In this document: in pieces, positions 4,266-54,467 of the stretch | How positions within the stretch are numbered: position 1 is the first letter of the stretch | How the letters are laid out: each line of letters opens with the position of its first letter | Source: an uncultured bacterium | Lineage (GTDB): Bacteria > Patescibacteriota > Minisyncoccia > UBA6257 > GWB1-50-10 | Direction of reading: 5' to 3' | NCBI GenBank assembly: GCA_963768835.1 | Contig: CAVYJB010000001.1 | Location: 281,903-345,902 of the forward strand | Length of the DNA: 64,000 bases | Notes under the pieces: model-generated | The model's input: only the letters and a program-made list of their open reading frames with translations | Told to the model about the DNA's origin: nothing | The model's database searches: none | Made by a program: the position numbers and the translations under genes

Positions 4266-5258
4266 TTAGAACTGCCGCACGAACCGGACGTCGCCCGAGT
4301 AGAAAAGGCGGATATCGGGCACGTGGTATTTGATCATCGCCAGACGGTCCAGCCCCACGCCAAACGCAAACCCTTGCATCGTTTCGGGGTTGTAGCGCAC
4401 CGCGTCGAAAACGTTCCGGTGCACCATCCCCGCCCCCATGACCTCAAGCCACCGATCTCCCTTGAAGCGGATGTCCACTTCGACACCCGGCTCCACGAAC
4501 GGGAAGTAGCTCGGTCGGAAGCGGAACTCCACGTTGTTCCCCAAGAGGCGGCGGAGAAACTCCTCTACGACGAACTTCAGGTTGGAGAGGGACACGTCAG
4601 GACCGACCATCAGCCCTTCTACCTGGTAAAAGTTAATCTCATGGGAGGCGTCCGTCGGCTCGTACCGGAAAACGCGTCCGGGGACAATGATCTGAAATGG
4701 CGGGTTGTGGGAAAGCATGTACCGGATCTGCATGGGCGAGGTATGCGTGCGGAGAAGCAGCTTGGGATCCCCGCGCTTGGTCCCGTTCCCTTTGATCCAG
4801 AAAGTATCCCAGAGATCCCGCGCTGGATGGTCCGGCGGGATGTTTAACGCATCGAAGTTGTGATACTCCGTCTCGACTTCGGGCCCCTCGACGACGGAGA
4901 AGTTCATCGAGGCAAAGATGCGCCGCACTTCAGCGTCTATCCGCGTGAGAGGATGCAGGTGCCCACGCGCCGCGCGCTTCCCGGGTTTCGTGACATCGAA
5001 CTGCCGTTCGGTGGGAGCCTTCTCCAACGCTCCCCGACGAGCCTTAAGAGCTCCTTCAAGCTTCCCTTTGAGAGCGTTTGCCGCCGGACCGAGTTTTTTG
5101 CGCTCCGCGAGCGGCCGGTTTTTCAAGGACCGCAGGACCTCCGTGAGCTTCCCGTGTTCGCGGCCGAGATACTCCACGCGCACCGCTTCAAGCGCGGCGA
5201 CATCCTTCGCTTTCGCGATGCTCTCGAGAGCCTGATGTTCTAGTTTTCCCAGGTCCAT
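4266..5258 (-). CDS. pheS: phenylalanine--tRNA ligase alpha subunit
   Basis: Class II aaRS motifs are present (FRYEPTDASHEINFYQVEG, GAGMVHRNV). Start is assigned to MDLGKLEH with GGAGGTG 5 nt upstream (cat at 5256-5258); the listed ORF extends further upstream without support. Confidence 0.85.
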   Translation of the reverse strand: MDLGKLEHQALESIAKAKDVAALEAVRVEYLGREHGKLTEVLRSLKNRPLAERKKLGPAANALKGKLEGALKARRGALEKAPTERQFDVTKPGKRAARGHLHPLTRIDAEVRRIFASMNFSVVEGPEVETEYHNFDALNIPPDHPARDLWDTFWIKGNGTKRGDPKLLLRTHTSPMQIRYMLSHNPPFQIIVPGRVFRYEPTDASHEINFYQVEGLMVGPDVSLSNLKFVVEEFLRRLLGNNVEFRFRPSYFPFVEPGVEVDIRFKGDRWLEVMGAGMVHRNVFDAVRYNPETMQGFAFGVGLDRLAMIKYHVPDIRLFYSGDVRFVRQF

Positions 5259-5337
5259 AGCACCTCCATTATATATCCGACATCCGCGATGTGGAAAGCA
5301 TAATTGAATTTTAGGGGCGGACGGTGTAGGATGGCTC

Positions 5338-5598: not shown

Positions 5599-5645
5599 CT
5601 GTTCGTACACGTTCTTTCACACACACCAACCATAAGGAGGTTGCT

Positions 5646-6206
5646 ATGAAAACATCGGATACGGCTGTGCAATCAGTAACGGTCATACCGCAGTCATCTA
5701 CAGAAGCCGCTGCGCATCTTATAAAAATCGCTGCGGAGCGACGCGCCCTCGACGAGGTCAACGGGCGCCTCAACCGGAAGGTGGAGGAGCTCAAAGCGGA
5801 TGCAATGACGGAAGCGAAACCACACCAGGAAGAACTCATCCGATTGATTTACGGCCTCTACGAGTACGCAAAGAAAAACCGCGAAATCCTCACCGAGGGC
5901 GGGAAAACGAAAACCGTCGAGCTGCCAACGGGCAGCTTCGGGTGGCGCTTCAACCCCCCATCTGTCAGCGTCCGCAAAGTAAAAGAGGTTATTAAATACC
6001 TGAGGAGCAAACGCCTGACACGCTTCATACGAGTCAAGGAAGAGGTCGACAAGAAGGCGCTTGGCAAGTCGCCCAAGACAGCCCTCACCATCAAGGGAGT
6101 GACGATCAAACAGGAGGAGGTCTTCGTTGTAACACCGAACGAGCTCAGGGCGGAAATCCCCATGCGGATCGTGGCTCTGGAAAAACTCGAGAAGAAACGG
6201 GCATAG
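5646..6206 (+). CDS. phage Mu Gam-like DNA-end-binding (host-nuclease inhibitor) family protein
   Basis: AGGAGG sits 6 nt upstream of ATG. The coiled-coil N-terminus and the block EILTEGGKTKTVELPTGSFGWRFNPPSVSVRKVKEVIKYLRSKRLTRFIRVKEEVDKKAL align, from memory, with Mu Gam (ELTNGGKVKTANLVTGDVSWRVRPPSVSIRGMDAVMETLERLGLQRFIRTKQEINKEAI). Confidence 0.7.
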   Translation: MKTSDTAVQSVTVIPQSSTEAAAHLIKIAAERRALDEVNGRLNRKVEELKADAMTEAKPHQEELIRLIYGLYEYAKKNREILTEGGKTKTVELPTGSFGWRFNPPSVSVRKVKEVIKYLRSKRLTRFIRVKEEVDKKALGKSPKTALTIKGVTIKQEEVFVVTPNELRAEIPMRIVALEKLEKKRA

Positions 6207-8688: not shown

Positions 8689-9447
8689 TTATTTTATACC
8701 CACTATTCCTGTAACATCCAACGGCCGTTCCATAAAACCATTAATCAGTCTTCTCTTGCAATGTTCCGCAAGCGCCTTGCGTGCTTGATCCTTTTTATCT
8801 TCTGAAACTAGGTTCCACAGACTCACTGACTGAAAATAGGCAATCGCGTGGTCGAGCGTAAAATGCTCGCTAACTTCTTTTTTCTCCTTGGTGACTTTTT
8901 GGAACCCACCCTCCTGAAGAATATTCTCCGGGTCATAATGCCTCTTTGCATCGGGAATTTCGCATGAAATAAATGGTTTTAATATCATACGGTATTCCTT
9001 TTTGAAATTGCCGGAATCGTTCTTGTTCACTACGAAAAATATTCCACCGGGCTTCAATACCCTCTTTATCTCTTTCACTGATTCCCTGTCACAGAACCAA
9101 TGAAATGCACTAAAGGCAGTAACCGCATCAAACGTTTCGTTGGAAAATGGCAGATGATTTGCAGGAGCGATGCAGTACGTTGCCTCACTTTCGTTTTTTT
9201 CTTCTGCAATCCGAATCATCTCCGGATCATTGTCGGCCCCGAAAATCTTTGCACTAGGCCGTAACAATTGCCGGGTCGAAATCCCCGTCCCACATCCAAG
9301 GTCTAACACCTTCGGCTGTTCACAGACGACTAATCGCCAAAAGCAATCAATAGTCTCTTGAGGAAATCCTTGTCGGGCTTCATCGTATTGCTTCCCTAGA
9401 TTTCCAAACTTTCCGTACCCTGGTTTTGCCTTGGTCACTTGTCGCAC
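8689..9447 (-). CDS. class I SAM-dependent methyltransferase
   Basis: VLDLGCGTGIST motif I and LKPGGIFFV motif. GTG start at 9447 is preceded on the coding strand by TGgTAGAAT, then 6 nt, then GTG. Local GC is visibly lower than the window average. Confidence 0.7.
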   Translation of the reverse strand: MRQVTKAKPGYGKFGNLGKQYDEARQGFPQETIDCFWRLVVCEQPKVLDLGCGTGISTRQLLRPSAKIFGADNDPEMIRIAEEKNESEATYCIAPANHLPFSNETFDAVTAFSAFHWFCDRESVKEIKRVLKPGGIFFVVNKNDSGNFKKEYRMILKPFISCEIPDAKRHYDPENILQEGGFQKVTKEKKEVSEHFTLDHAIAYFQSVSLWNLVSEDKKDQARKALAEHCKRRLINGFMERPLDVTGIVGIK

Positions 9448-9573
9448 AGTTATATTCTACCACGCGGCTCCCTTCAGATATTGACAAAATATAAATATAA
9501 TGTATTATGTGCGCAGAAACAGAGCCTATTAAGGGCTTTAACAATTCATTTAGACAACTGAGAGGGGTATTGT

Positions 9574-12750: not shown

Positions 12751-13696
12751 AATCGAACGTTTCGTCTATCTGCTTCGTGAGGTCGCCGTACCGTTCGGCG
12801 ATAAACCCCTGCGCAACGTAGCGACGGTGTAGCTCGTAAAGCTTCCGAAGCCGCTTTTTGTAGTCCGGAGTGATTGAGAAAAGCCTTCTTTCGATGTGCG
12901 CCAACAGGGTTTTATTTTCTCCTTCCAACAAATCGACGTTCAGCGCACCGCCTTCCTGGTCCTTCCTACGTAGATATGCAGATTCTTTGAAAAGCCCGAG
13001 GAGTTTTTCCGCCGGGATGGCTTTCTTTATGAATTCCGCGTCAGTTTGGGACCGCACCTTGTTGCCAACCACAAAGAGTGAATCGTAGACCCCCGCTTCT
13101 AGGGCAAGCTTCCGGTATTGCTCGAATACCTCGAGGCCCCGCTTCGTCGGCTCAACGGTGAGCACGAGCATCTCGAATTGCGCGTGGAGCGTGTTTGCAA
13201 AGGCATCAATCCCAGCGACCATATCGGTCACAACGACGCCAGAAGCATCCGCAAGGTGAGAGAGGATGTTCTCAAGGATTGCGAGATTGTTGTGATAACA
13301 GCTGGCGCCGATCTCCTCGCTATCGTAGGTTCCGACGACCAGCAACCGCAGTTTCTCATCGCCCGAGCCAAATCGGGAAAGGACGGGGTCCTGAGGATCG
13401 TCCAAATATATGAGATTCGATTCGGCGGTAGGCGGGGTCGTTTTGCGGAATTGCGCAAGGCCTTTAATGCGTGTATTCCCGCCTTTTAAGTGCGTCTTGA
13501 TGACCCTTGCCGCATCGGGATGCGAGATATGCCTCTCAATCGGCAGCTCGGCTTCAAACCCCAAGAGCCCCCCGAGGTGCATATTCAAATCCGCGTCAAT
13601 GGCGAGCACCGGATGTTTCCTATTGATATATTCGGCAAAGAGAGCGGCCAGCGTTGTTTTCCCCGAACCTCCCTTGCCTACAAAAGCAATCCTCAT
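12704..13696 (-). CDS. CooC/MinD/ParA-family P-loop ATPase
   Basis: MRIAFVGKGGSGKTTLAALFA deviant Walker A; DADLNMHLGG; VVTDMVAGIDAF. Start is taken at MRIAF (cat 13694-13696); an upstream Met at 13732 is also possible. Confidence 0.65.
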   Translation of the reverse strand: MRIAFVGKGGSGKTTLAALFAEYINRKHPVLAIDADLNMHLGGLLGFEAELPIERHISHPDAARVIKTHLKGGNTRIKGLAQFRKTTPPTAESNLIYLDDPQDPVLSRFGSGDEKLRLLVVGTYDSEEIGASCYHNNLAILENILSHLADASGVVVTDMVAGIDAFANTLHAQFEMLVLTVEPTKRGLEVFEQYRKLALEAGVYDSLFVVGNKVRSQTDAEFIKKAIPAEKLLGLFKESAYLRRKDQEGGALNVDLLEGENKTLLAHIERRLFSITPDYKKRLRKLYELHRRYVAQGFIAERYGDLTKQIDETFDFENYVKTRSQNRKTV

Positions 13697-13737
13697 GCCC
13701 CTAACGATACAGACCACACTCTTCGAATACAAGTTAT

Positions 13738-13765
13738 TTGCAAGTAGTTTGCATTTAGATATAAT
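13738..13765 (+). promoter_or_regulatory. promoter-like TTGCAA-16 nt-TATAAT ending 6 nt before the fur-family start codon (leaderless-type); direct TTTGCA repeats overlap it
   Basis: ttatTTGCAAgtagTTTGCAtttagaTATAATgggaaaATG. Confidence 0.45.
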
Positions 13766-13771
13766 GGGAAA

Positions 13772-14236
13772 ATGCCAAAGAAAGATTTTTTCCGCGACAT
13801 ATTGAGAAAAAGCGGCTATAAAGCAACACCTTCCCGGCTCGCGATTCTTGGCGTCTTTAAGGAAACGAGAAATCCGATGAGCGCCCAGGAGATTATCGAC
13901 GCGCTTCCCTCGGATACCGACCAGGCCACCGTCTATCGGACGCTCAAGCTATTGAATGAGAAAGGAGTCATCAAGCAAATCGACCTGCGGCACAACCATG
14001 CCCATTACGAACTTGCCGACCTGAAGGAGCACCATCACTTGGTGTGCGTGCGCTGCGGTAGGATCGAGGACGTGCACCACTGCGGCGCCCTGGCTGTTCA
14101 GGACGCAGTTCTCAAGAGCTCGAGGCACTTTGCGGAAATCAGCAGCCATTCGCTTGAGTTCTATGGCATTTGCACTGCCTGCGTCAAAAAAAGCGAGGCT
14201 GCGCATGTCGCTCCCCATCGCAGTGCACCGCTCTAG
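13772..14236 (+). CDS. Fur-family metalloregulator (Fur/Zur/Nur/PerR-type)
   Basis: Winged-helix N-terminus (RLAILGVF...MSAQEI) and the HHHLVCVRCGRIEDV...C metal-site motifs. Confidence 0.8.
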   Translation: MPKKDFFRDILRKSGYKATPSRLAILGVFKETRNPMSAQEIIDALPSDTDQATVYRTLKLLNEKGVIKQIDLRHNHAHYELADLKEHHHLVCVRCGRIEDVHHCGALAVQDAVLKSSRHFAEISSHSLEFYGICTACVKKSEAAHVAPHRSAPL

Positions 14237-14246
14237 TAGACCACCC

Positions 14247-15671: not shown

Positions 15672-16052
15672 CTACATAGATCCCAAGTAAAGCAAAACCA
15701 AGCCCAGAAGAAAGGCAACGATTCCTCCGAAGATGAGTACGCCCTCCTTGTTGCACTTCTGATACAGCGTAACGGCGGGGCCAGGAAGGAGAAGGAGAAA
15801 AGCTCCTTTGATGACCGTGAGCCACCCAAGGACCGTGATGAGTAACGGGAGACCGGAGGTCCAGGTGTTGTTCATCACGACAATCACGGCACCCATGGTC
15901 AAAATGAGGAAGCTCCACAGCCACAAGAATCCACGGTCCTGAGTTACCTTTCCAAGGGCGGTCGACATAGTCTTTCTGTCGATCACCACTGATAGACCCA
16001 TGACCGCGAAAATAATACCCAGTGCCTGAGTGATAGCGACGGCGACGTTCAT
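15672..16052 (-). CDS. small integral membrane protein (about 4 TM), hypothetical
   Basis: Hydrophobic throughout (AITQALGIIFAVMGLSVVI...LLGLVLLYLG); ATG at 16052. Confidence 0.5.
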   Translation of the reverse strand: MNVAVAITQALGIIFAVMGLSVVIDRKTMSTALGKVTQDRGFLWLWSFLILTMGAVIVVMNNTWTSGLPLLITVLGWLTVIKGAFLLLLPGPAVTLYQKCNKEGVLIFGGIVAFLLGLVLLYLGSM

Positions 16053-16189
16053 ATATTTTATGTTAGTGGTAACGATACACCACCGGCCTTTCTATTATTA
16101 TAACGCTATTGGGAACATTCGCTCCGCGGGTACGATCCGGACCCACTCTAACCCATCGACCGTTGACTAAGTCCGTTTGCAGCCAGGTC

Positions 16190-20369: not shown

Positions 20370-20491
20370 GGAACCTCCGTTTTATAAAAGTGGTTTCTGC
20401 TTTGTTTCTACCACCCAGCCCCGCAAATATCAACCTATTAGAATATCAGAGCCGGGTCCTAAAGCAGGGGTGGCCTGTGCTAATATATCTC

Positions 20492-21499
20492 ATGGAGGAA
20501 TTGTTTAAGCCGTCTATGCCTCGTTTGTGGAAATTCATCGTCGTCATTGCCGCCCTCGCGGTGCTCATTGTTTTCTATAAAAGCGAATTGGGCGCGCCGG
20601 GGGGCGGCACCGGAATCGAGATATTCTCCGTCCCGCTCCACAGAACACGCGCGGAGGTCGTGCAGAGCCTTGTCATGGCGGGGTTCGTGAAGCACGCCTG
20701 GGCTCTGGACCTTGCGCTCACGCTCCGCGGGGCCCCGGTCGCGATCGTGCCGGGGGGATACAACCTTTCAAAATCTATGAATGTGTGGAGCGTGGCCGGC
20801 GTCCTGCTCTCCAAGTCCTCGCTCGTGTGGGTCACGGTCCCCGAAGGGCTCCGGAAGGAGGAGATTGCGGGGCTTCTTGCGGACGCGCTCGGGTGGACCG
20901 AAGCGCAACGGACCGAATGGATTGCACTCGATACCGCACAGAACTCCGACTATTTCGAGGGCGTCTACTTTCCTGAAACCTACCTCCTGCCGGCCAACGA
21001 CAACGGGCCGGACGTGGCCGCTCGCCTCATCGCCAAATTCAACGAGAAGTTCGCGCCGCTCGCGCCCGCATTCGCGAAACAAAATGTGAAATGGACCACC
21101 GCCGTGAAAATTGCTTCGCTCGTCCAGCGCGAGTCCGCGGGGCCCGATGACATGCCGCTCATCGCGGGTATCATCTGGAACCGGCTCCTCAAGAACATGC
21201 CTCTGCAAATCGACTCGACGGTCCAATACGCGCGGGGCGATACGGGGAAAGGTTGGTGGGCCCCCATCACTCTCGCGGACGAGAAGATCGACTCCCCTTA
21301 CAATACCTACCTTCATACGGGGTTGCCGCCCCACCCCATCGCGAACCCGGGGTTCGAGGCGCTCGCGGCGGTCCTCACGCCCACGACGACAACCTGCCTT
21401 TATTACCTCCACGACGCGAATCGGCAGATCCACTGCGCGGCGACGTACGCCGAGCACCTCCAGAACATCAATACCTATCTCTCCCCTAGCAATCCCTGA
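20492..21499 (+). CDS. mltG: endolytic murein transglycosylase MltG (YceG family)
   Basis: N-terminal TM segment, then the YceG-like block (GVYFPETYLLP...; LQIDSTVQYARGDTGKGWWAPIT...YNTYLHTGLPPHPIANPG). Start is taken at MEELFKPSM (ATG 20492), with TAATAT 5 nt upstream. Confidence 0.8.
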   Translation: MEELFKPSMPRLWKFIVVIAALAVLIVFYKSELGAPGGGTGIEIFSVPLHRTRAEVVQSLVMAGFVKHAWALDLALTLRGAPVAIVPGGYNLSKSMNVWSVAGVLLSKSSLVWVTVPEGLRKEEIAGLLADALGWTEAQRTEWIALDTAQNSDYFEGVYFPETYLLPANDNGPDVAARLIAKFNEKFAPLAPAFAKQNVKWTTAVKIASLVQRESAGPDDMPLIAGIIWNRLLKNMPLQIDSTVQYARGDTGKGWWAPITLADEKIDSPYNTYLHTGLPPHPIANPGFEALAAVLTPTTTTCLYYLHDANRQIHCAATYAEHLQNINTYLSPSNP

Positions 21500-26931: not shown

Positions 26932-27540
26932 TTAGTTCGTCGTAATCTGACCTGCGTCCGAAACGACAACCCATGTCGAAACGCTCTGGCCCGCCGGCGC
27001 AAGACCGATGCGGTAGGGCAAGGAATTGCCGGACGGAGCAAACGTGGTGGGATCCGGAGGTATATAGATGAGGTCCTGCCAGCTATTGTCGTTCCCGTCT
27101 TGGAGGGTCACCAAGACCCGTGGGTCGGTGGTATAGGTTTCAAGATCCTCGTCCCGGGCTCCGACGCCCGGGACGTACTTCCCTTGGCCATGGTATCCCC
27201 CGTCCCGGCACTGGGCATTAGGGCCGTTCGCGGGATCTATGAGATCCTGGAATATGGTGAACGTGGCATTCCCCGTCGGATTCTTCACGGCGTGCACGCC
27301 GAACCCGCATGCATCCGGGTTGCTATTCAATTTCTCAATGGCGAGCGACTTGGCTCGGTAGAACATCCCCGCAATGACCGCTTGGTCCTTATCCATCGCG
27401 ATCTGGACCTCGCTCGCGCGGCTATACGTGAGAAGGATGCCCGAGAGAGACGCCATCACGGCGATAACGACCATGAGCTCGATAAGAGTGAACCCTGTGC
27501 ATAAATTCCGGCGCTCCGTTCCCTTCATAGACCACTCCAT
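26932..27540 (-). CDS. type IV pilin-like minor pilin (GspH/FimT-like)
   Basis: ...RRNLCTGFTLIELMVVIAVMASLSGILL. Start is at MEWSMKG (27540) or MKG (27528); the listed ORF extends further upstream through Arg-rich, non-coding-looking sequence. Confidence 0.6.
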   Translation of the reverse strand: MEWSMKGTERRNLCTGFTLIELMVVIAVMASLSGILLTYSRASEVQIAMDKDQAVIAGMFYRAKSLAIEKLNSNPDACGFGVHAVKNPTGNATFTIFQDLIDPANGPNAQCRDGGYHGQGKYVPGVGARDEDLETYTTDPRVLVTLQDGNDNSWQDLIYIPPDPTTFAPSGNSLPYRIGLAPAGQSVSTWVVVSDAGQITTN

Positions 27541-27593
27541 TATACAACAAAAATCGCCGGTCCTCCCCGGTGTTCGCCCGCATTGAACGGAGG

Positions 27594-30025: not shown

Positions 30026-30439
30026 TCACTGATTGGAAACACAGTATATTACGCCGCTCTGGCAGGCTGGTGTTCCTCCACACGGATTCGTCGAGCCTGT
30101 CTGGCCTACAGGTGGTGCTTTTTCAAGAGTGGCTGCAATGTAATATTCATTATTCGACGTGCCGCACACTTCGTAGCCATAAGGGTTGTTATTCAGGGGA
30201 TCCTTGGGCATGGATGCGGGGAGTGCGGGGGGATACCCAGTTCCGGGAACAAAATTCTGTTCAACGTAGTTCTGGATCTCTTTCACGTCCGCCATTCGCC
30301 GAGCGTCTCGCGCTTGCGACCGCGCGCTCCCGAGGCCGATAACAATAATAGAGGAGAGAAGCCCGATAATGGCGATGACCACGAGCATCTCGATGAGGGT
30401 GAAACCTTTTCGGTTCTCCATGATTCTATTGGTTTTCAT
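30026..30439 (-). CDS. type IV major pilin paralogue 4
   Basis: (MKTNRI)MENRKG|FTLIEMLVVIAIIGLLSSIIVIGLG. Confidence 0.75.
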   Translation of the reverse strand: MKTNRIMENRKGFTLIEMLVVIAIIGLLSSIIVIGLGSARSQARDARRMADVKEIQNYVEQNFVPGTGYPPALPASMPKDPLNNNPYGYEVCGTSNNEYYIAATLEKAPPVGQTGSTNPCGGTPACQSGVIYCVSNQ

Positions 30440-30496
30440 TCTAATAGAAGAATTTGGACGACCTTTCGTAAGTATCTTTATTATAGCAAATACTGC

Positions 30497-31714: not shown

Positions 31715-32788
31715 CTAAGTTCGCTCCAGGAGAATCCGGAGCTCCGCGGGGTTCAAGGAGAACAACTCGGCCTGTTCCAGGGAAACTTCCTTTTGCTTCA
31801 CGAGGTTCACGAGGGAGCGGTTCAAAGAGATCATCCCCTCCTGCACCGAGGTCTCGATCACGAGATCGATCTGGTAGATCTTCTTCTCGCGGATCAGGTT
31901 CCGGACCGCGGAGTTCATGAGCATAACCTCCGTCACGGGCACCCGGCCGCCTCCGAGGCGCGGTACCAGCCGCTGAGAAATGATGCCGACGAGGGTGGAG
32001 GCGAGCTGTGAAACGATCTGGCCTTGCTGTTCCGAGGGGAAGGAGTCGATGATGCGGTCGATGGTCTGGGAGGCGGAGTTCGTGTGAAGCGTGGAGAAAA
32101 CCACGTGGCCCGTCTCCGCGGCCGTCATCGCGGTTGCGATGGTTTCGGGGTCGCGCATCTCGCCGATCATGACGACATCGGGGTCCTGCCGCAGAATGGC
32201 CCGAAGGGCTTCATGGAACGAGGTGGCGTCCTGCCCCACTTCGCGCTGGGAGATGATGCACCGATCCTGGGAAAAGATGTACTCAATGGGGTCCTCGACG
32301 GTGATGATGTGCTCGGTGCGTTTGTGGTTCACCTCATCCAAGATTCCCGCGAGAGTCGTGGATTTCCCGTGCCCGGCGGGGCCCACCACGAGCACAAAAC
32401 CCTGGTTCAGCTTCGCAAAATCATGGAGGATGGGCGGGAGGTTCAGTTCATCGATGGTACGGATGCGCGCGGGGATGAGCCGGAGCGCGGCCGCCATGAA
32501 GCCCCGCTGGTAGTAGACGTTCACGCGGAAGCGCGCCTTCTCCTCGTAGTCGTAGGAGAAATCGAGCTGCCGCAGCTTCAGGAACCGATCGCGCTGGTCA
32601 TCCGTCAGGAGCGCCATCACGAGCCCCTCCGTGTCCTCCTTCGTGAGGACCTGCTCCTTGGCGAGCGGGATGAGGACGCTGTCGACACGGATCGTCGGGC
32701 GACGGCCCACCGCGATGTGCAGGTCCGACGCGTTCTGGCGCGCCGTGACGAGAAGGAGTTCGTTCAATTTTTCCTTGTGGTTCTCCAT
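31715..32788 (-). CDS. pilT: twitching-motility retraction ATPase PilT
   Basis: GPAGHGKSTT Walker A, Asp box, HIITVEDPIEY, His box; about 357 aa, no N-terminal extension. Confidence 0.85.
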   Translation of the reverse strand: MENHKEKLNELLLVTARQNASDLHIAVGRRPTIRVDSVLIPLAKEQVLTKEDTEGLVMALLTDDQRDRFLKLRQLDFSYDYEEKARFRVNVYYQRGFMAAALRLIPARIRTIDELNLPPILHDFAKLNQGFVLVVGPAGHGKSTTLAGILDEVNHKRTEHIITVEDPIEYIFSQDRCIISQREVGQDATSFHEALRAILRQDPDVVMIGEMRDPETIATAMTAAETGHVVFSTLHTNSASQTIDRIIDSFPSEQQGQIVSQLASTLVGIISQRLVPRLGGGRVPVTEVMLMNSAVRNLIREKKIYQIDLVIETSVQEGMISLNRSLVNLVKQKEVSLEQAELFSLNPAELRILLERT

Positions 32789-32814
32789 AATATTTTTATT
32801 GTATCATGCTTCCT

Positions 32815-36032: not shown

Positions 36033-37125
36033 AGTATTTGAGTGCGAGGCCGGTTGCGAGAGCGAGCTTGGCGTTCAGGGACGGGATGGCGGGTTCGACG
36101 TCGGACGGATAATGGAGCTGCAGGAAAGGACGAGGTTCCGAGAGCTTCAGCTGCAGCCGGGCCGCCGCGTAGTCGCCGATGCCCGGAAGATTGGCGCCGC
36201 CGCCCACGAGCATCGCGCGTTCCACCGTTTTTCCTTTCCCTCCCTGGTAGATGCCTCGCACGCGTTCGGCTTCCTGTATTATAACATCCAGAAACGGCTC
36301 GAGCGAGGTCGATAATTCGCTTTCTCCGCCGAACCCGAGGAGACCCCGGCGGCATTTGAGTTCTTCGGCCCGCCACGCGCTTACATCGAGGCTCCGCGCC
36401 AGGGCCTGCGTCAGGGCCACACCGCCATAGTCGGTCTGGCCGGTTTGCTTCAGGGCTCCGCCCTCCACCACCGCGAGTCCCGTCGATTCCGCTCCGATAT
36501 CGATGATGAGCGTCGGTGGATCCGCCGCAGTGAGGAGCGAACGGATCAGGGCATGGCTCTCGACCTCGATGGAGGAGAGCGGAATCCCCGCCATCTGGAA
36601 GATGTTCTTGTACCGCTGGAGCGTCTCATTGGGGATCGCGGTAAGGAGGATGCGCTGGAATTGCTGTCCCTTGTCGTTCTCATACTCCTCCACCTTCGTC
36701 CAGTCGAGCGTCGCCTTCTCCGGCGGGATGGGGATATACTGCCGTGCCTGGAAGAAAAGCGACTGCTGGGTCTCCGCCGGAGAAAGCATGGGCATCTCGA
36801 TCGGAACGACGAAGACCCCGAAGAGCGGCACGGACGCGACCACATGATCCACGCCCGGGCGCATGTCCCGCAGCAGGGTCTTGAGGAGCACCGCGGTATC
36901 TTTCTCTACCAGCTTGAACGAGGTGGTCTGGATGACCTCGTTCGAGCGCTCCAGATACTCCTTCTTTTCGAGAATGCCGTAGTTCACGAGCTTCACGGCA
37001 TCCGCCGTCCGCTCAACCTCGACGGCTTTTATGGAAACCGTGCCGATATCCACGCCCAGCGTGCGTTTATATTTCAGAAACTGGAAAACATCGCCGAAAA
37101 AATCGCTAAGGATACCGAATCGCAT
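36001..37125 (-). CDS. pilM: type IV pilus assembly protein PilM (actin-like ATPase)
   Basis: LGVDIGTVSIKAVEV... actin-fold phosphate-1 motif; 374 aa. The coding strand has TGgTAGAAT, then 6 nt, then the ATG. Confidence 0.8.
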   Translation of the reverse strand: MRFGILSDFFGDVFQFLKYKRTLGVDIGTVSIKAVEVERTADAVKLVNYGILEKKEYLERSNEVIQTTSFKLVEKDTAVLLKTLLRDMRPGVDHVVASVPLFGVFVVPIEMPMLSPAETQQSLFFQARQYIPIPPEKATLDWTKVEEYENDKGQQFQRILLTAIPNETLQRYKNIFQMAGIPLSSIEVESHALIRSLLTAADPPTLIIDIGAESTGLAVVEGGALKQTGQTDYGGVALTQALARSLDVSAWRAEELKCRRGLLGFGGESELSTSLEPFLDVIIQEAERVRGIYQGGKGKTVERAMLVGGGANLPGIGDYAAARLQLKLSEPRPFLQLHYPSDVEPAIPSLNAKLALATGLALKYYATTRGVPNR

Positions 37126-37167
37126 GTCTCCATTCTACCACAGTACTCCGCGACCGCGTGCGGGCGA

Positions 37168-41512: not shown

Positions 41513-42951
41513 GCGGCGCCCGAGAAGAGGCCGGAGAGGTTCACCTGCACGCTGTACTGGTGCGAGGGAGTGGAGAGCGAATTGAAGTCGACCCAGCCGA
41601 TGCCGGTGGGCGTCCCCGCAAGCTGCGCCAGGCCCGTCCAGGCGTGACCGCGGAGGATGAGTTTTACATTCAGGTCCGCGATGCCGACGCTCGAGTACTC
41701 GGAGTAGGATCCGCTCCCGAACTGCGCCCGCACGCGGTAGGCATAGACGGTTCCGAAGGGCACATTCGAATCCGTTACCTTCAGGAGCGGTTGATTGGCG
41801 CCCGCGAGCACGGGAGAACCGAGCGGCGCGTACGCGCCGCCCAGGGGAGCTCGCTCCAGGACATAGTTTGTGTTCGGAAACGTGTTATTCCAGGAGAGGG
41901 TCACCTGCCCTTGCCCCGGCTTCGGCGCGATGGAAACGTACGTGACCGCGGCCGAGAAATTCTGCGGAGCGTTCCCGACCTGCACGTTCACGATGTTCGA
42001 GTAACTCGAGCAACCCGTGGCTCCGGTGACCGCGACGCAGCCGTGGACGGCATAGTAGTAGGAGGAGCCGGCCTGGAGCGTCGCATCAAGATAGCCTGTC
42101 GTGTTTCCGCCGAGCGTGGCGAGGTGCTGGAGGTTGATGGGCGAGGTGCCGCGGAGAACCTCCATGCTCGACTGACCGACGCCGTTCACCCACGCGAGCT
42201 GGACCTGGCTCGGGACGCCGGGCCCGTTGTAGGTATACTGTCCGACGAGGCCTGTGGGCGCGGTCGGCACCGTCGCGGCGACTGTAGGAGCCGAGGGGGA
42301 CGCTTGGGAAAGATCACAGTTCGGGTCCCCTTGGACCGCGGTTACTTGGTAGCGAACGATACCCGCAGGAGGCGCCGGGTCCGTATAGGAATTCACCGCG
42401 ACGGTTCCGATCTGCGCGGGAAGATTGTCCTGGATGAGCGCGAAGGAGCCGCCTGAAGCGCCGGGCGCACGATAAATGCGATAAAAGGCGTTCGCCGGAT
42501 CCGAGAAGGTCGGTGGAGTCCAGGCGAGGAGCGGAAGACCGCCGTGTCCGTCCGCTGTGAACGCGGTCGGAACGGTCGGCGTCGGAATATCCGCCGTCGT
42601 GACGGAGGGCGGCGTCGAGAGCACCCAGGCCGTCAGAGGGTTCCCGCTTCCGTCCTGCCCTTGGATGCGGTACTGGTACGGGGTGTTCTTATTGAGTCCC
42701 GTGTGGGAAAAACTCGTGCCAGCCGTCACCGTGGCGAGCGTCCCCGCCGGGAAAAAGGAAGTGGTGGTATACTCCACACGATAGGTGGTAACCTGCGTGC
42801 CCGGAGTCCACGAGAGATCGATGCGGCAAGCGGTTACTGCCTTCGCTGTGAAGTTCGAAGGGGGTGTTTGGGCGTGGGCAATCGCGCCGACGAATGCGAG
42901 CGCAACCGAAAGCGCGAGTATCCCACCGAGCCTCCGTGTCATTAGTTCCAA
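41272..42951 (-). CDS. giant surface protein, proximal segment: signal peptide plus FN3-like domains; probably continuous with 37220..41512 across a frameshift
   Basis: MTRRLGGILALSVALAFVGAIAHAQ signal peptide. FN3-like modules (FTAKAVTACRIDLSWTPG...YRVEY; APQNFSAAVTYVSIAPKPGQGQVTLSWNN). It ends at 41272 inside a segment where the other frame already reads as Ig-repeat-like protein (GNGKSYGVTFDPVSGNF...). Confidence 0.65.
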   Translation of the reverse strand: MELMTRRLGGILALSVALAFVGAIAHAQTPPSNFTAKAVTACRIDLSWTPGTQVTTYRVEYTTTSFFPAGTLATVTAGTSFSHTGLNKNTPYQYRIQGQDGSGNPLTAWVLSTPPSVTTADIPTPTVPTAFTADGHGGLPLLAWTPPTFSDPANAFYRIYRAPGASGGSFALIQDNLPAQIGTVAVNSYTDPAPPAGIVRYQVTAVQGDPNCDLSQASPSAPTVAATVPTAPTGLVGQYTYNGPGVPSQVQLAWVNGVGQSSMEVLRGTSPINLQHLATLGGNTTGYLDATLQAGSSYYYAVHGCVAVTGATGCSSYSNIVNVQVGNAPQNFSAAVTYVSIAPKPGQGQVTLSWNNTFPNTNYVLERAPLGGAYAPLGSPVLAGANQPLLKVTDSNVPFGTVYAYRVRAQFGSGSYSEYSSVGIADLNVKLILRGHAWTGLAQLAGTPTGIGWVDFNSLSTPSHQYSVQVNLSGLFSGAAWASVQAGARSYTYGWLSFNQSDLVGCPSGPCEARFNFATQKTSGWARFILPRYADPATLGGWDGWVSLGERLAMGNRTA

Positions 42952-43044
42952 TTATAGCATACCGCCGTTACACTTCTCGGCCCACCAAGAGGAGGGGCGA
43001 TGCTCTATCTGTATATTGTAGATACGCATGTCGCGAAGAATGAC

Positions 43045-43121: not shown

Positions 43122-45779
43122 TTACCACGTCACAATAACACCGCCACCAGTACCATAAGTACCGTAGTTGGCCGAACCATCGCAGGTATTAACGCCATTA
43201 CCGCCCTTCCCAAAGTTGAAACCATTCAGAAAACTGTTGCCGCCGAGACCACCACCATTAGTCACGCCAATAGCGCCATTCGTCCCGTTCATGTGAAACG
43301 CACCGCCACTTGCTGTCCCTCCCGTTCCACCACCCATAGCCCCGTTGAAGCCATTCCCTCCACCGCCGGCGGTGAGACTACCGAATGTGCTGTTCTGGCC
43401 AGACTGTATCGGCGCATAGTAGACTGTGCCACCGCCACCAACGGTCCCAGAGAAACTCTGCCCGGGGGTAACATTAATGAAATCAGTCACATAAGCACCG
43501 CCGCCACCGCCACCGCCACCAACAGGAGCTGGGGTATCGCCGCCGCACGCCGTGAGATCCGCTAACCCGCTGGCGCCGCCGCCGCCCCACACTTCAGCCT
43601 TTATGGAATAGACATTGGCGGGCACCGTGAAGGTAAAGCTCCCTGGAGTGTTGAACACCTGCATGCCGTGGGGAATGCCGCTTACACCTGCCTTCGCCGT
43701 TACAAGCCCGCCTACCGTCAAACTATTTTCGATATTCGTCGTTCCGTCCTGAGCAAGAGTAAACCGCACGTCACCGCTGCCGTTCGTGAACTCGAGAGTG
43801 CCGGCAACCGTATTAATGGAGTACTGGCCGCTGCCGGCGACACAGATAATTTTCCGATAATAGAATTGGGGATCATTCAGAATGTGGCCCACGTCAGTCC
43901 ATTCTACATTGACTGGGTCGCCGGCTTTACAAATATAGTAGGCGGTGTTATCGGCCGATGGGGTGGTATCTCCGGGGCAGCCAGCCGGGCTACCACTACT
44001 GCCGCAAGCCACAGCGGTCTGTGTGACCTGGGTGGAGAGAGACGCGCCTGGAGACTCGAGAATCAGCTGAGGGCCAGGACCCGGGGTCACATTGTTTCCA
44101 GGCTGCCGCATCAGGTCGATATTGCCGTTCAGGATGGATAAAGCGTGGGGCGGGGCCTCCGTCCCGATGCCGACATTCCCACCCTTCAGAACAAGCACAT
44201 CGTCCTGTCCACCATTCTTAACCACGAGCGCGCCATCCGTGCCCATCTTAAAGAGGGTGGGATTCGCGGCACCGCTACGCTCGAGCGCGAGGACCGGATC
44301 CGTGGCGCTCATGACCGCGAAGTGCGCGGTCGGGGCGGGGTTCGTGTCTCCGATGCCGACGTTTCCCTGATTGTCGATAGTCACAAGATCTGTGGCGCCC
44401 GGCGTTGCACCCTGGGAGATGCGTAGGGTGTTGTCCCCGCGGTTATCAATATGGAACCACGAGCCAGAAGTGGAAGGATAGAATGAGAGCTTTCCCGCTG
44501 CCGTCCCCGCCACTCCCAACCCCACAACGCCGCTATTCGTGTTATTAATGTCGTTCCCATTCGCTGCCCAGTAGCTTGTTCCGGAACCACCGCCCGGCCA
44601 CACGCTGATACAGTTGGGGAGAGGCGATCCGGGAAGACAGAACTGCTTTGCAAAAAGGCTTCCGTTCACATCCATCGTGTGGAAGGGCGGCCCGCCAAAC
44701 CCTCCGACCTTCAGAGTTCCCATCAAGATTCCATTCACCCCCACAAAGTTCTGGGCGCTCACGGCCGCTCCGCTCACGGAACCCGCCGCGGTGATATTGC
44801 CCTGCGCGGTGATATCACCATTCGAGAGCGTGGCCTGCTGCAGCTGGAAATGGGTGTATCCCAGGTGCCAGGCGAGAGTCGCGTCAGATTGGGGTATGCC
44901 GCTGGTAAAGAGTTCATAAACGTCCGTGGGCGAGCTTGGACCGGTTGCCTGATACGTGCTAGCCGGACATTCCTGGGTGTTGAGCGTCGCGTCGTTACAC
45001 TCGCTGTTGGCGCTCGAGATCCGTAACGAAGCGATGTTCGCGGGCGGAGGCGTGGTCGTGCTCCAGTCAGCCGACCCCCACAACGAAGCGGACGAAGGGG
45101 TTTGGTATGACGCGGAGGTATCTTGCGAGTAGAACGGGCCTCCGACTAATTTGTACTGATATCCGCCGACCGCAACCTGGTTCGCGGCGATGTCGCCGTA
45201 CACGGCGAGCGGGGCAGATTTCAGAATAGACGGACCTCCCACCGTCACCGCGGGGTTCGTTGCGGACGCATATTGAATGCCGCCGGATATTAACTGCCAG
45301 TATCCCGCGCCACCGCCGCCACCGCCTCCAGCACCGATCGGTACCCACGCCGTCCCGTTGTAGAGCTTAATACTGTTTGATACGACATCGTAGTAAATCG
45401 CACCCGCTCTCGTCGGCGTGGGAACCCCTCCCGGCGCAGGTATCTCGAGATCTCCGCGTGCGTTCTGGATAACCGTGTTACCGTTTTGATCCTCGGGGAA
45501 AAACTGGACCGCCGCGCCCACTCCGATAAATTGTCCCGGCTGGAAGTAGAGGACACCGGGACCCGCCGCCGCGCCGAACGTGATGTTGCCGCCCGTCTTC
45601 GTCTGCGCCGCCGCGCTCGTATCAAGCGGCGGGAAAACATTCCCGTTCGGGAAGTCCTGCGTGGGAGCCGTCCAGTTCGTCTGGGCGTTCACCAATGGAA
45701 GTCCCGCGAAAGAGAACGAAACCGCGACGACCGTTGAGAGTGCGACCGAAACGAACGAACGCACGATGGGACGGTTCAT
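43122..45779 (-). CDS. secreted glycine-rich tail-fibre-like protein (885 aa)
   Basis: Start is at MNRPIVRSFVSVALSTVVAVSFSFAGLPLVNAQ (cat 45777-45779), with TATAAT 9 nt upstream on the coding strand. Motifs GNVGIGDTNPAPTAHFAV / GNVGIGTEAPPHALSI resemble the VGIGTxxP motif of phage tail-fibre proteins, and there are long poly-Gly tracts (GGGGGGGAG, VWGGGGASG, GGGGGGGGAYV). The listed ORF continues ~600 bp upstream through Arg-rich sequence, which is rejected. Confidence 0.65.
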   Translation of the reverse strand: MNRPIVRSFVSVALSTVVAVSFSFAGLPLVNAQTNWTAPTQDFPNGNVFPPLDTSAAAQTKTGGNITFGAAAGPGVLYFQPGQFIGVGAAVQFFPEDQNGNTVIQNARGDLEIPAPGGVPTPTRAGAIYYDVVSNSIKLYNGTAWVPIGAGGGGGGGAGYWQLISGGIQYASATNPAVTVGGPSILKSAPLAVYGDIAANQVAVGGYQYKLVGGPFYSQDTSASYQTPSSASLWGSADWSTTTPPPANIASLRISSANSECNDATLNTQECPASTYQATGPSSPTDVYELFTSGIPQSDATLAWHLGYTHFQLQQATLSNGDITAQGNITAAGSVSGAAVSAQNFVGVNGILMGTLKVGGFGGPPFHTMDVNGSLFAKQFCLPGSPLPNCISVWPGGGSGTSYWAANGNDINNTNSGVVGLGVAGTAAGKLSFYPSTSGSWFHIDNRGDNTLRISQGATPGATDLVTIDNQGNVGIGDTNPAPTAHFAVMSATDPVLALERSGAANPTLFKMGTDGALVVKNGGQDDVLVLKGGNVGIGTEAPPHALSILNGNIDLMRQPGNNVTPGPGPQLILESPGASLSTQVTQTAVACGSSGSPAGCPGDTTPSADNTAYYICKAGDPVNVEWTDVGHILNDPQFYYRKIICVAGSGQYSINTVAGTLEFTNGSGDVRFTLAQDGTTNIENSLTVGGLVTAKAGVSGIPHGMQVFNTPGSFTFTVPANVYSIKAEVWGGGGASGLADLTACGGDTPAPVGGGGGGGGAYVTDFINVTPGQSFSGTVGGGGTVYYAPIQSGQNSTFGSLTAGGGGNGFNGAMGGGTGGTASGGAFHMNGTNGAIGVTNGGGLGGNSFLNGFNFGKGGNGVNTCDGSANYGTYGTGGGVIVTW

Positions 45780-45899
45780 ATTGATTCCATTATAACATAC
45801 GGTGCACTGTGGAAAGGTGTTGGTTGTGCACCTCTCTATAGAATGCCCTGTGCACAGTTCCGCGCTGGCTTCCCCGGAGGGGCGCGGTAGAATGAAGAC

Positions 45900-46376
45900 A
45901 TGGAACAGCAGAAATCGCGGCGGTTGGTCGTGATTGGCGTCGTCATCCTTGTGATCGGCGTCGCTTTTGGCATCTGGTACGGCGCGCAGAAACTTATCCC
46001 GCACATGACGCCTACGCCCGCTGCGCGACCTTCCGAGAACTTCCCGAAGCCCCCCGCGGAGCTCCATACCCTTACAGGAACTATCCTGCAAGTCGTCGGA
46101 GCCTCGATCTATTTCAACGTCGACGACCCCACGGACTACCTGCCGCACGCCGACGGCACGCCCCCCCGCCAGCAGACGCGCGTCGCAAACCTGACGAAAG
46201 CCACCACCATCACCCTCGTCGATCCCACGAAACTCGCTGCATCGGGCACGCCGACGGTCACCACCCTGACGCTTAAGGACCTGAAGCCGAAGATGGGCAT
46301 CACGGTCACAAGCGATCAGAACATCCTCTCCGCGCCGCAATTTGACGTAACCGCCATCAAGTTGATAAAATCGTAG
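45900..46376 (+). CDS. hypothetical membrane-anchored protein (158 aa)
   Basis: [28 protein letters not shown] signal-anchor, then a Thr/Pro-rich domain. TAGAAT lies 6 nt upstream of the ATG. Confidence 0.5.
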
Positions 46377-46380
46377 GGCC

Positions 46381-47022: not shown

Positions 47023-47082
47023 TGGGAACCCGTGAGGTAGAATGGAGGCGCAATGCCCGCAAGGAAAGAACCCCAGGAATCC

Positions 47083-49787: not shown

Positions 49788-49871
49788 GGTTATATTATAA
49801 ATTACTACAACCAATAACCCGACCGCCGAACCGCTCGTGATAACTCTATAAGATTCATCGTTTCTTAAGTG

Positions 49872-54378: not shown

Positions 54379-54467
54379 AAAACGGGTACCTATCCTAATA
54401 AGATCGAATCGGAAACAGAAAACGTCACGAGAAAAAATGACGGGAAAAAGGTTATAATCTGAGACAC

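What the first reader, a model, noticed from the sequence alone, without database searches (positions are those of the whole stretch)
13738..13774. Recurrent -10-like hexamer 5-9 nt upstream of start codons, suggesting a leaderless-mRNA architecture
At least nine genes show a TA...T hexamer immediately upstream of the start with no room for a Shine-Dalgarno sequence: fur-family 13772 (TATAAT, 6 nt), methyltransferase 9447 (TGgTAGAAT, 6 nt, GTG start), pilM 37125 (TGgTAGAAT, 6 nt), mltG 20492 (TAATAT, 5 nt), Gly-rich protein 45779 (TATAAT, 9 nt), 45900 gene (TAGAAT, 6 nt), tyrS upstream ATG 47053 (TAGAAT, 9 nt), membrane protein 49787 (TATAAT, 6 nt), DHFR-like 59056 (TACAAT, 6 nt). Other genes (pheS, the Gam-like gene, SDR) carry a canonical GGAGG RBS, so both initiation modes seem to coexist. 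This matters for start-site calling; several track ORFs are clearly over-extended.
Basis: seen in the sequence. Interest (0 to 1): 0.5.

Follow-up and report, generated by a model that had tools for sequence, protein, structure and literature searches.

The report
Promoter boxes sitting directly on start codons
In this uncultivated Patescibacteria (CPR) genome about half of the transcription units carry their promoter -10 box only 5-10 bases before the start codon, so these mRNAs most likely begin at or next to the AUG without a ribosome-binding leader; this is a well-known bacterial strategy, seen here in a lineage for which I found no description of it.

Summary
All nine sites exist as described, and I found nine more of the same kind. 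TANAAT lies 5-9 nt before an ATG/GTG that opens an ORF of at least 100 aa 14 times in 64 kb. The expectation is 1.8 from 1.08 Mb of unrelated bacteria, and about 2 for composition-matched permutations of the hexamer. The motif is an extended -10 (TGTGnTAnAAT) with no clear -35. It occurs before first genes of transcription units and almost never before operon-internal genes. It is conserved before orthologous genes (pilM, fur, fn3 protein, tyrS, pilT, clpP, a pilin) in relatives with only 47-75% protein identity. The organism is a 59% GC Patescibacteria/Parcubacteria-type MAG. The best explanation is leaderless or near-leaderless transcription of the GeneMarkS-2 "group C" type. It coexists with a minority of GGAGG-led genes and a majority of operon-internal genes that have no Shine-Dalgarno (SD) sequence and follow the preceding gene closely. 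No transcription-start data exist, so the mechanism is inferred. The kind is known. The lineage appears undocumented in the open-access literature I could search.

The parts
13737..13774 (+). fur-family gene promoter and start: -35-like TTTGCA/TTGCAA (13737-13743), TATAAT (13760-13765), 6-nt spacer gggaaa, ATG 13772
   Evidence: The sigma-70 scan gives a 10/12 match ending at 13765. The block TTGCAAGTAnTTnGCATTTAGnTATAAT-N6-ATG is conserved in L093 and L096 (Fur 73% and 69% identical). The FUR domain starts at residue 13. Many homologs are exactly 154 aa.
13694..13709 (-). cbiA-like gene: TATCGT, 7-nt spacer, ATG 13696. It is divergent from fur across a 75-nt intergenic region.
   Evidence: The deposited call in L001 gives the same 330-aa start. 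Relatives have TGtTATGCT-N6 (L093) and TAACCT-N7 (L096). This is a weaker hexamer.
9445..9462 (-). methyltransferase: TGgTAGAAT, N6, GTG 9447
   Evidence: This is the first start codon of the ORF.
37123..37142 (-). pilM: cTGTGgTAGAAT, N6, ATG 37125
   Evidence: cTGTGnTAnAAT is conserved before pilM in 9 of 10 genomes, at N6-N12.
20478..20494 (+). mltG/YceG: TGcTAATAT, N5, ATG 20492
   Evidence: Four in-frame start codons lie upstream, so this start is less certain.
45777..45797 (-). Gly-rich 885-aa protein: TGtTATAAT, N9, ATG 45779
   Evidence: Longer ORF versions would overlap the divergent 45900 gene. The L084 ortholog has TGgTATACT-N6-ATG.
45888..45902 (+). 158-aa membrane protein: TAGAAT, N6, ATG 45900
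   Evidence: The L084 ortholog has TAGAAT-N7-ATG. The N-termini align.
46363..46383 (+). clpP: TGaTAAAAT, N9, ATG 46381. The box lies in the last codons of the upstream gene, so this is a probable internal promoter.
   Evidence: Relatives have TGaTACGAT-N6/7-ATG. The ClpP N-termini are nearly identical.
47038..47055 (+). tyrS: TAGAAT directly followed by GGAGG (47044-47048), then cgca and ATG 47053. This is the ambiguous N9 class.
   Evidence: Relatives keep a -10 (TACAAT-N6, TACGAT-N9) but have no GGAGG. The N-termini align. There is no T-box or riboswitch.
5256..5273 (-). pheS: TATAAT directly followed by GGAGG, then tgct and ATG 5258 (N9)
   Evidence: The longer ORF overlaps tRNA-Met.
27526..27544 (-). 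pilin-like gene: TATAAT-ggagtggtct-ATG 27528 (N10, with GGAG in the spacer)
   Evidence: N_methyl motif at residues 10-33. Orthologs have TGtATAAT-N6, TGtTATAAT-N7 and TGcTATAAT-N8.
32786..32803 (-). pilT: TACAAT, N9, ATG 32788, in the 26-nt gap after pilB
   Evidence: TACAAT-N9-ATG is conserved in L082, L084 and L086. The N-termini align.
42940..42959 (-). fn3-domain protein: TGcTATAAT, N8, ATG 42942
   Evidence: TGnTATAAT-N6..8-ATG is found before the orthologs in L082, L084, L086, L087 and L088, and TATAAT-N7 without the TG in L089.
49785..49799 (-). 149-aa membrane protein: TATAAT, N6, ATG 49787
   Evidence: The longer ORF overlaps tRNA-Gly.
54453..54470 (+). ABC ATPase: TATAAT, N9, ATG 54468
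   Evidence: This is the first start codon of the ORF.
56074..56088 (+). HlyD-family gene: TAGCAT, N6, GTG 56086 (weaker hexamer)
59054..59071 (-). RibD_C (DHFR-like): TGgTACAAT, N6, ATG 59056
   Evidence: The Pfam domain starts at residue 2.
16050..16065 (-). 126-aa hypothetical: TAACAT, N7, ATG 16052 (weaker hexamer)
   Evidence: The deposited call in L001 gives the same start.
30419..30488 (-). Comparator, a leadered gene. Major pilin: TGcTATAAT (hexamer 30480-30485), 13 nt, AAAGGTCG (30459-30466), then 37 nt to ATG 30421.
   Evidence: The same promoter-plus-leader layout is conserved in nine genomes. This shows that TGnTATAAT is the lineage's -10 box also where it is far from a start codon.
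5636..5648 (+). Comparator, an SD-led gene: GGAGG, 5 nt, ATG 5646. The same layout occurs at 48338-48350.
   Evidence: There is a modest GGAGG spacing peak at 4-8 nt in the window.

Best explanation
The hexamers are the -10 elements of housekeeping-sigma promoters of the extended -10 type (consensus TGTGnTAnAAT, no clear -35). In this window they are often followed by a G-rich discriminator (GGA/GGGA).

RNA polymerase normally starts about 7 nt after the -10. A 5-7 nt spacer therefore puts the first transcribed base on the A of the ATG (or the G of the GTG). An 8-10 nt spacer leaves a leader of about 1-3 nt. The resulting mRNAs cannot carry a functional Shine-Dalgarno. They would be translated by the leaderless route, in which the ribosome with initiator tRNA binds the 5'-terminal AUG directly.

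About half of the transcription units in the window are built this way (16 of 33 first genes). A minority (about 8-11) use GGAGG-type SD leaders. Most genes inside operons have neither signal and are presumably translated by coupling to the preceding gene.

Shown: the motif, its position, its restriction to first genes, and its conservation. Inferred: the transcription start point and the translation route.
For: 1. Position-specific enrichment against three controls: other spacings, 1.08 Mb of unrelated bacteria, and composition-matched permutations.
2. Aligned on the hexamer, G at -14 occurs in 11/15 window sites and 29/41 sites in relatives, with T at -15 and a second TG at -17/-16. No -35 consensus appears. 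This is the signature of an extended -10 recognised as DNA.
3. The motif precedes first genes and not operon-internal genes. Window, curated starts: TANAAT 12/33 against 1/20. Relatives, deposited gene calls: 22/62 against 1/55. Combined P=3e-8.
4. The same TGnTATAAT lies 36-40 nt upstream of leadered genes (a second pilin, a Big_7 protein) and about 58 nt upstream of the major pilin start. It also lies upstream of tRNA genes, which are not translated.
5. Ortholog comparison. The pilM box is kept in 9/10 genomes. The fur box with an invariant N6 is kept in 3 distinct genomes while the other half of the intergenic region diverges. fn3, pilT, clpP, tyrS and a pilin are likewise conserved.
6. Start codons are supported. 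10 of the 18 are the first start codon of the ORF. Pfam domain limits support fur, the pilin and the RibD_C gene. Ortholog N-termini support PilM, TyrS, ClpP, PilT and hyp158.
7. Divergent gene pairs are separated by only 73-75 nt (cbiA/fur) or 9-60 nt (comF/pilM in relatives). That leaves no space for two leaders.
8. No riboswitch or T-box leaders were found.
Against: - There are no transcription-start or N-terminal peptide data.
- In three N9-N10 cases (pheS, tyrS, pilin 27528) GGAG(G) lies between the box and the ATG. A transcript from a promoter further upstream could therefore use an SD. For pheS a TAAAAT 49 nt upstream exists.
- Window starts were curated by me, so the 16/33 figure carries some bias. 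The gene-call-free tests do not.
- Counts in relatives come from two syntenic regions, so orthologous promoters are counted repeatedly and the very small P values overstate independence.
- Five of the 18 hexamers are weak (TAATAT, TAGCAT, TAACAT, TATCGT, and TAAAAT inside a coding region).
- Two use GTG, which is a poor leaderless start in E. coli, though it is accepted in mycobacteria (own knowledge).
Confidence: 0.8

Rival explanations
1. The A/T-rich hexamer acts on the mRNA as a non-Shine-Dalgarno ribosome-binding or S1-binding signal, like the 'group B' motif of Bacteroidetes. Transcripts would start further upstream.
For: SD use is low in this clade: an SD core precedes only 14 of 117 genes in relatives, and relatives show no GGAGG spacing peak. 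About half of Parcubacteria are reported to lack the anti-SD motif (PMC9297842). Some other initiation signal is therefore needed.
Against: A translation signal should also precede operon-internal genes, and it does not (1/20 and 1/55). The conserved TG/TGTG two to five bases upstream is a DNA-recognition feature of sigma, not of ribosomes. The same motif precedes tRNA genes and sits 36-58 nt upstream of leadered genes. Intergenic regions of 9-75 nt between divergent genes leave no room for upstream promoters.
Confidence: 0.07
2. Mixed or dual use in the N9-N10 class (pheS, tyrS, pilin 27528). These genes are read mainly from longer transcripts that use the GGAG(G) abutting the box as a true SD. 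The -10-like hexamer is either a secondary promoter or incidental.
For: GGAGG lies 4 nt before the ATG in pheS and tyrS, and GGAG lies 6 nt before the ATG in the pilin. GGAGG shows a modest spacing peak at 4-8 nt in the window, so the anti-SD is probably functional here. An upstream TAAAAT exists for pheS.
Against: Orthologous tyrS and pilin genes in relatives keep the -10 at N6-N9 but lack GGAGG. 'GGA' directly after the hexamer is common to the window's boxes, including the N6 genes fur, pilM and hyp158. It may therefore be a discriminator preference rather than an SD. A 4-nt SD spacing is shorter than the usual optimum.
Confidence: 0.25
3. Start codons are mis-assigned. The true starts lie further downstream, so the boxes drive ordinary leadered mRNAs.
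For: Starts in the window were inferred, not measured. mltG, the 149-aa and 126-aa proteins and HlyD have no ortholog or domain check of their N-termini.
Against: The N-termini of PilM, ClpP, PilT, TyrS and hyp158 align from the first residue with orthologs. RibD_C starts at residue 2, the prepilin motif at residue 10 and FUR at residue 13. Many Fur homologs are exactly 154 aa. The sharp spacing peak at 6-7 nt would not arise if the ATGs were irrelevant.
Confidence: 0.05
4. Chance or composition. Intergenic DNA is A/T-rich in a 59% GC genome, so TA...T hexamers near starts are expected.
For: The loose TANNNT pattern alone is not distinguishable from its permutations in the gene-call-free test.
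Against: TANAAT gives 14 hits against about 2 for permutations of the same composition at the same positions. It also shows a sharp spacing preference, a TG extension and cross-genome conservation.
Confidence: 0.02

Closest known systems
Bacterial genomes with frequent leaderless transcription (GeneMarkS-2 'group C': Actinobacteria such as Mycobacterium and Streptomyces, and Deinococcus-Thermus such as D. deserti)
   Same: A Pribnow box lies 6-8 nt (about -10) before the start codon of first genes in operons. 25-50% of operons are affected. This coexists with RBS-led genes (PMC6028130). Here the figure is 16/33 first genes, with a peak at 6-7 nt and a shoulder at 9.
   Different: Group C genomes are described as using RBS sites for the other genes. 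Here and in the relatives SD motifs are rare even inside operons: 1/20 in the window, 5/55 in relatives. The lineage is Patescibacteria, which the main text of that survey does not mention (supplementary tables not checked). The promoters show a strong TGTGn extension and no -35.
Extended -10 / '-16 region' (TRTGn) promoters of Gram-positive bacteria (own knowledge: Voskuil and Chambliss 1998), and the GGGA discriminator contact of sigma region 1.2 (own knowledge: Feklistov 2006, Haugen 2006)
   Same: The consensus is TGTGnTAnAAT with no -35 consensus. fur reads TATAAT-GGGA.
   Different: Those elements describe promoter strength, not distance to the start codon. Recognition by this organism's sigma factor is untested.
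Non-SD initiation signals of Bacteroidetes and relatives (GeneMarkS-2 'group B')
   Same: Low SD usage, with an A/T-rich motif close to starts.
   Different: The group B motif precedes both first and internal genes. Here it is limited to first genes.
Reported loss of the anti-SD motif and reduced ribosomes in part of Parcubacteria (Tsurumaki et al. 2022, PMC9297842)
   Same: Same broad lineage. It fits the weak or absent SD signal in the relatives.
   Different: That paper does not address promoters or leaderless mRNAs. This window still has several perfect GGAGG sites at SD distance, so its own anti-SD is probably intact. The 16S rRNA gene is not in the window.

Membership tests
Leaderless-transcription genome architecture (GeneMarkS-2 group C) | A -10 (Pribnow) motif localised about 6-8 nt upstream of start codons | tested here: met
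   Spacing peaks at 6 and 9 nt in the window, and at 6-7 nt in relatives.
Leaderless-transcription genome architecture (GeneMarkS-2 group C) | The motif precedes first genes of operons, not internal genes | tested here: met
   Window 12/33 against 1/20. Relatives 22/62 against 1/55.
Leaderless-transcription genome architecture (GeneMarkS-2 group C) | The remaining genes (leadered first genes and internal genes) use RBS sites | tested here: not met
   An SD core is found at 11/33 first genes but only 1/20 internal genes in the window, and at 14/117 genes in relatives. A GGAGG spacing peak is modest in the window and absent in relatives.
Leaderless mRNA (functional definition) | The primary 5' end lies within 0-5 nt of the start codon | not testable with these tools
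   Needs dRNA-seq, Cappable-seq or 5'-RACE. Here it is only inferred from the distance between the -10 and the ATG.
Leaderless mRNA (functional definition) | A 5'-terminal AUG (or GUG in some phyla) is used as the start | tested here: met
   16 of 18 candidates use ATG and 2 use GTG.
Extended -10 (TGn / TRTGn) promoters | TG one base upstream of the -10 hexamer; the -35 is dispensable | tested here: met
   G at -14 in 11/15 (window) and 29/41 (relatives). T at -15 in 8/15 and 23/41. No -35 consensus appears in the alignment.
Non-SD RBS genomes (GeneMarkS-2 group B) | The same motif lies upstream of both first and internal genes | tested here: not met
T-box or riboswitch-controlled aminoacyl-tRNA synthetase leaders (considered for tyrS and pheS) | A structured leader RNA upstream of the gene | tested here: not met
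   Rfam at gathering threshold finds only 7 tRNAs in the window.

The most novel reading that the evidence does not exclude
Leaderless initiation at extended -10 promoters, together with SD-independent coupling inside operons, is the dominant gene-expression layout across a whole clade of Parcubacteria/Paceibacteria (Jorgensenbacteria-like and neighbouring lineages). It would be the functional counterpart of the reported anti-SD loss and reduced ribosomes in that group. If so, a large branch of the CPR initiates translation in a largely SD-free way, as archaea and actinobacteria often do, and standard gene callers systematically misplace starts in thousands of CPR MAGs.
Probability: 0.45. Interest if true: 0.6.

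Novelty: new member of a known kind. Interest (0 to 1): 0.4.

Why it matters
Gene calling. In this lineage the correct start is often the ATG 6-9 nt after a TGnTAnAAT box. Longest-ORF tracks in the window are over-extended by up to about 200 codons. Deposited calls in relatives start at the ATG inside TACAATG (PilM in L086 and L087), or at a TTG instead of the N6 ATG (fn3 gene in L082).

Biology. The result gives a concrete promoter consensus for an uncultivated CPR clade. It also links promoter layout to the published observation that many Parcubacteria lack the anti-SD sequence. It predicts that these organisms rely mainly on 5'-AUG recognition and on coupling, which can be tested with existing metatranscriptomes.

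Engineering. As genetic tools for Patescibacteria emerge, a compact promoter-plus-start module of about 20 nt is directly usable.

Tried and rejected
- A genome-contig scan with TyrS, to find the organism and close relatives. It gave only hits of 52% identity or less, scattered over many phyla. It was useless for taxonomy, but I reused the 1.08 Mb as a negative control.
- L001, from the first contig look-up, is the same organism (99.98% identical) and uninformative for conservation.
- My codon-usage gene finder missed genes in the lower-GC 8-16 kb stretch. I replaced it with Pfam-supported curation.
- The gene-call-free test with loose TANNNT is swamped by internal starts and not significant. 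Only TANAAT, or curated starts, give a clean signal.
- I looked for a -35 consensus and found none, although fur alone has a 10/12 sigma-70 match.
- I looked for T-box or riboswitch leaders and found none.
- Four literature searches linking 'leaderless' with Patescibacteria, CPR, Parcubacteria or Saccharibacteria returned no paper that describes it. The co-occurrences I opened were incidental. The library covers only open-access PMC and bioRxiv, so absence is not proof.
- tRNA upstream regions as independent promoter evidence: 2 of 7 have clear boxes and the others are unclear.

Full report
**What is at the flagged coordinates.** Positions 13737-13774 (+) read TTTGCAAGTAGTTTGCATTTAGA-TATAAT-gggaaa-ATG. 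The ATG opens a 154-aa Fur-family gene whose FUR domain begins at residue 13. A sigma-70 consensus scan finds one promoter here, reported in two registers of the -35 (TTTGCA or TTGCAA, 17 or 16 nt spacer, TATAAT, 10 of 12 matches). It ends at 13765, six bases before the ATG. The gene is divergent from a cbiA-like gene whose ATG is at 13696, so the whole intergenic region is 75 nt.

**The nine listed sites.** All nine are present with the stated hexamers, strands and spacings. Eight fit TANAAT. The ninth, mltG, is TAATAT with a TG extension. Five of the nine have TGn directly upstream of the hexamer.

**Is it more than chance?**
- Spacing profile. I avoided gene calls and asked how often TANAAT is followed, at each spacing from 0 to 40 nt, by an ATG/GTG opening an ORF of at least 100 aa. 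The window gives 6 cases at spacing 6 and 6 at spacing 9. Other spacings give about 0.8 per bin (P=8e-5 for spacings 5-9).
- External control. The same statistic in 1.08 Mb of unrelated bacterial loci (GC 0.43-0.71; these were the by-product of a TyrS scan) gives 30 hits. That is 1.8 per 64 kb, against 14 observed (P=7e-9).
- Composition control. Of 60 permutations of T-A-N-A-A-T, the true pattern scores 14 and the others average 2.0. The only high ones are frame-shifted versions of TATAAT.
- The loose TANNNT pattern is not significant in this crude test.
- 14 of the 63 TANAAT in the window, counting both strands, lie 5-9 nt before such a start.

**More cases and a gene table.** I used Pfam, tRNA and Rfam scans and candidate-start listings to curate 55 protein genes.
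- Of 33 first-in-unit genes, 16 have TANNNT 4-10 nt upstream (12 have TANAAT). 11 have an SD core (GGAG, GAGG or AGGA at 4-12 nt). Three have both (pheS, tyrS, pilin 27528). Nine have neither.
- Of 20 operon-internal genes, 17 have neither signal and follow the preceding gene within -38 to +13 nt.
- For 10 of the 18 candidates the proposed start is simply the first start codon in the ORF. For others, longer versions collide with tRNA genes or opposite-strand genes.

**What the motif is.** Aligning the sites on the hexamer gives TGTGnTAnAAT.
- G at -14 occurs in 11/15 window sites and 29/41 sites in relatives.
- No -35 consensus appears.
- In the window a G-rich stretch (GGA) follows directly after the hexamer.

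This is the anatomy of an extended -10 promoter, and resembles the Gram-positive TRTGn '-16 region' (own knowledge). The same TGnTATAAT also occurs far from start codons:
- about 58 nt upstream of the major pilin start, followed by a conserved AAAGGTCG leader element, in all nine genomes compared;
- 36-40 nt upstream of another pilin and of a Big_7 protein;
- upstream of tRNA-Met and tRNA-Asp.

An mRNA-level translation signal would not behave like this.

**Organism and relatives.** PilM homologs place the window in Patescibacteria. The nearest named hits are 'Patescibacteria group', Candidatus Jorgensenbacteria, Paceibacterota and Brennerbacteria, at 47-61% identity. The source contig is 353,519 nt. 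I fetched twelve distinct contigs of relatives, covering about ten different genomes, around pilM and fur. Synteny is conserved.
- pilM: cTGTGnTAnAAT is present in 9 of 10 genomes, at 6-12 nt from the start codon defined by the aligned N-terminus (M-x-F/L-G-x-x-DFF).
- fur: TTGCAAGTAnTTnGCATTTAGnTATAAT-N6-ATG is conserved in three distinct genomes (Fur 69-75% identical). The cbiA-proximal half of the intergenic region is not conserved. It nevertheless carries a TAnnnT 6-7 nt before the cbiA ATG in each genome.
- The fn3 protein, pilT, clpP, tyrS, a pilin and the 158-aa gene behave likewise.
- In relatives tyrS keeps the -10 but has no GGAGG.
- Using the deposited gene calls, TANAAT at 5-10 nt precedes 22 of 62 first genes and 1 of 55 internal genes (P=3e-6). 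The gene-call-free profile peaks at 6-7 nt.
- These counts reuse orthologous promoters, so the conservation is the evidence rather than the P values.
- SD cores precede only 14 of 117 genes, and GGAGG shows no spacing peak in relatives, against a modest one in the window.

**Mechanism.** Bacterial RNA polymerase usually starts about 7 nt after the -10 (established knowledge). A 5-7 nt spacer (10 of the 18 genes) therefore places +1 on the start codon. An 8-10 nt spacer (8 genes) leaves a leader of 1-3 nt. Neither can hold an SD on the mRNA. Divergent pairs separated by only 9-75 nt cannot fit two leaders either. I therefore rate leaderless or near-leaderless expression at about 0.8. The transcription start and the translation route are inferred, not shown.

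For pheS, tyrS and the pilin at 27528, a GGAG(G) lies in the spacer. Dual use (an SD on read-through or upstream-initiated transcripts) cannot be excluded, and I rate it at about 0.25 for those three genes. Two points argue against it. The relatives lack that GGAGG. The 'GGA' directly after the box is also seen in N6 genes (fur, pilM), so it may be a discriminator preference.

**Comparison with what is known.** The closest description is the GeneMarkS-2 'group C'. There a Pribnow box lies 6-8 nt from the starts of first genes in 25-50% of operons. The group is typical of Actinobacteria and Deinococcus-Thermus (PMC6028130). Two defining features are met here: localisation, and restriction to first genes. 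One is not: use of an RBS by the remaining genes. One cannot be tested: mapped 5' ends.

The 'group B' non-SD RBS model fails, because the motif is absent from internal genes. Tsurumaki et al. report that about half of Parcubacteria lack the anti-SD motif (PMC9297842). That fits the SD-poor relatives, but the paper does not discuss leaderless transcription.

Four full-text searches found no paper connecting leaderless mRNAs with CPR/Patescibacteria (the incidental co-occurrences I opened are). The library is open-access only, so this is weak evidence of novelty.

**Verdict.** The kind of system is already well known. Its presence as a conserved trait of a Parcubacteria clade appears undocumented, so I file it as a new member of a known kind. 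Interest is moderate. The practical value is for start-site calling in CPR MAGs and for understanding SD-poor translation in reduced-ribosome bacteria.

Noticed in passing
window 30419-30488 (-); L082, L084, L086-L090, L092 upstream of the first pilin gene: The major pilin gene has a conserved TGnTATAAT, then 10-16 nt, then an invariant (A)AAGGTCG, then about 25-37 nt to the ATG, in all nine genomes compared. The AAAGGUCG would lie near the 5' end of a leader of roughly 40-50 nt. Its role is unknown (stability element, regulator site or ribosome standby site?). There is no Rfam match.
   Followed up: partly
window 13737-13759 (+); L093 and L096 at the same place: The spacer and -35 region of the fur promoter (TTGCAAGTAnTTnGCATTTAG, containing a tandem 11-nt repeat TTTGCAnnTAG in the window) is conserved across genomes, while the rest of the intergenic region is not. 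It is probably an operator overlapping the promoter, for example for autoregulation by the Fur-family protein.
   Followed up: partly
window 5306-5345 (+), tRNA-Met 5338-5412: An initiator-like tRNA-Met (5'-CGCGGGG) has TTGAAT-N17-TAGGAT ending only 5 nt before its mature 5' end. Transcription may therefore start at or within 1-2 nt of the mature end. tRNA-Asp (7305) has TTGCGA-N17-TACACT 11 nt upstream.
   Followed up: no
window, operon-internal genes such as 4261(-), 22975(-), 25336(-), 28499(-), 34554(-), 35449(-), 57603(+): 17 of 20 operon-internal genes have neither an SD nor a -10. They start -38 to +13 nt from the preceding stop codon. This suggests that termination-reinitiation coupling is the main route inside operons.
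   Followed up: partly
L086 10001, L087 10001 (PilM); L082 3841 (fn3 protein): Deposited gene calls start at the ATG formed by the end of the -10 box (TACAATG), or at a downstream TTG, instead of the ATG supported by ortholog N-termini or the N6 spacing. This points to systematic start-site errors in such MAGs.
   Followed up: partly
window 37220-42942 (-): The fn3-domain ORF (41272-42942) and the Big_7-repeat ORF (stop-to-stop 37220-41884) overlap by more than 240 nt in different frames. Relatives have a single gene of about 830-1280 aa here followed by comF, which is missing in the window. This may be a frameshift, an assembly error or a rearranged surface-protein gene.
   Followed up: no
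window 8000-16000, especially 9574-10325 (+): This stretch has lower GC (0.50-0.54, against about 0.60 elsewhere). It contains two adjacent ORFs matching successive parts of citrate synthase, that is, a broken gene.
   Followed up: no
window 56022-56050 (+): An A/T-rich, partly palindromic stretch (TACGATATAATAATATTATCCGATACGGATATCC) lies upstream of the HlyD/ABC transporter operon. It contains several overlapping TATAAT-like hexamers on both strands and may be an operator.
   Followed up: no
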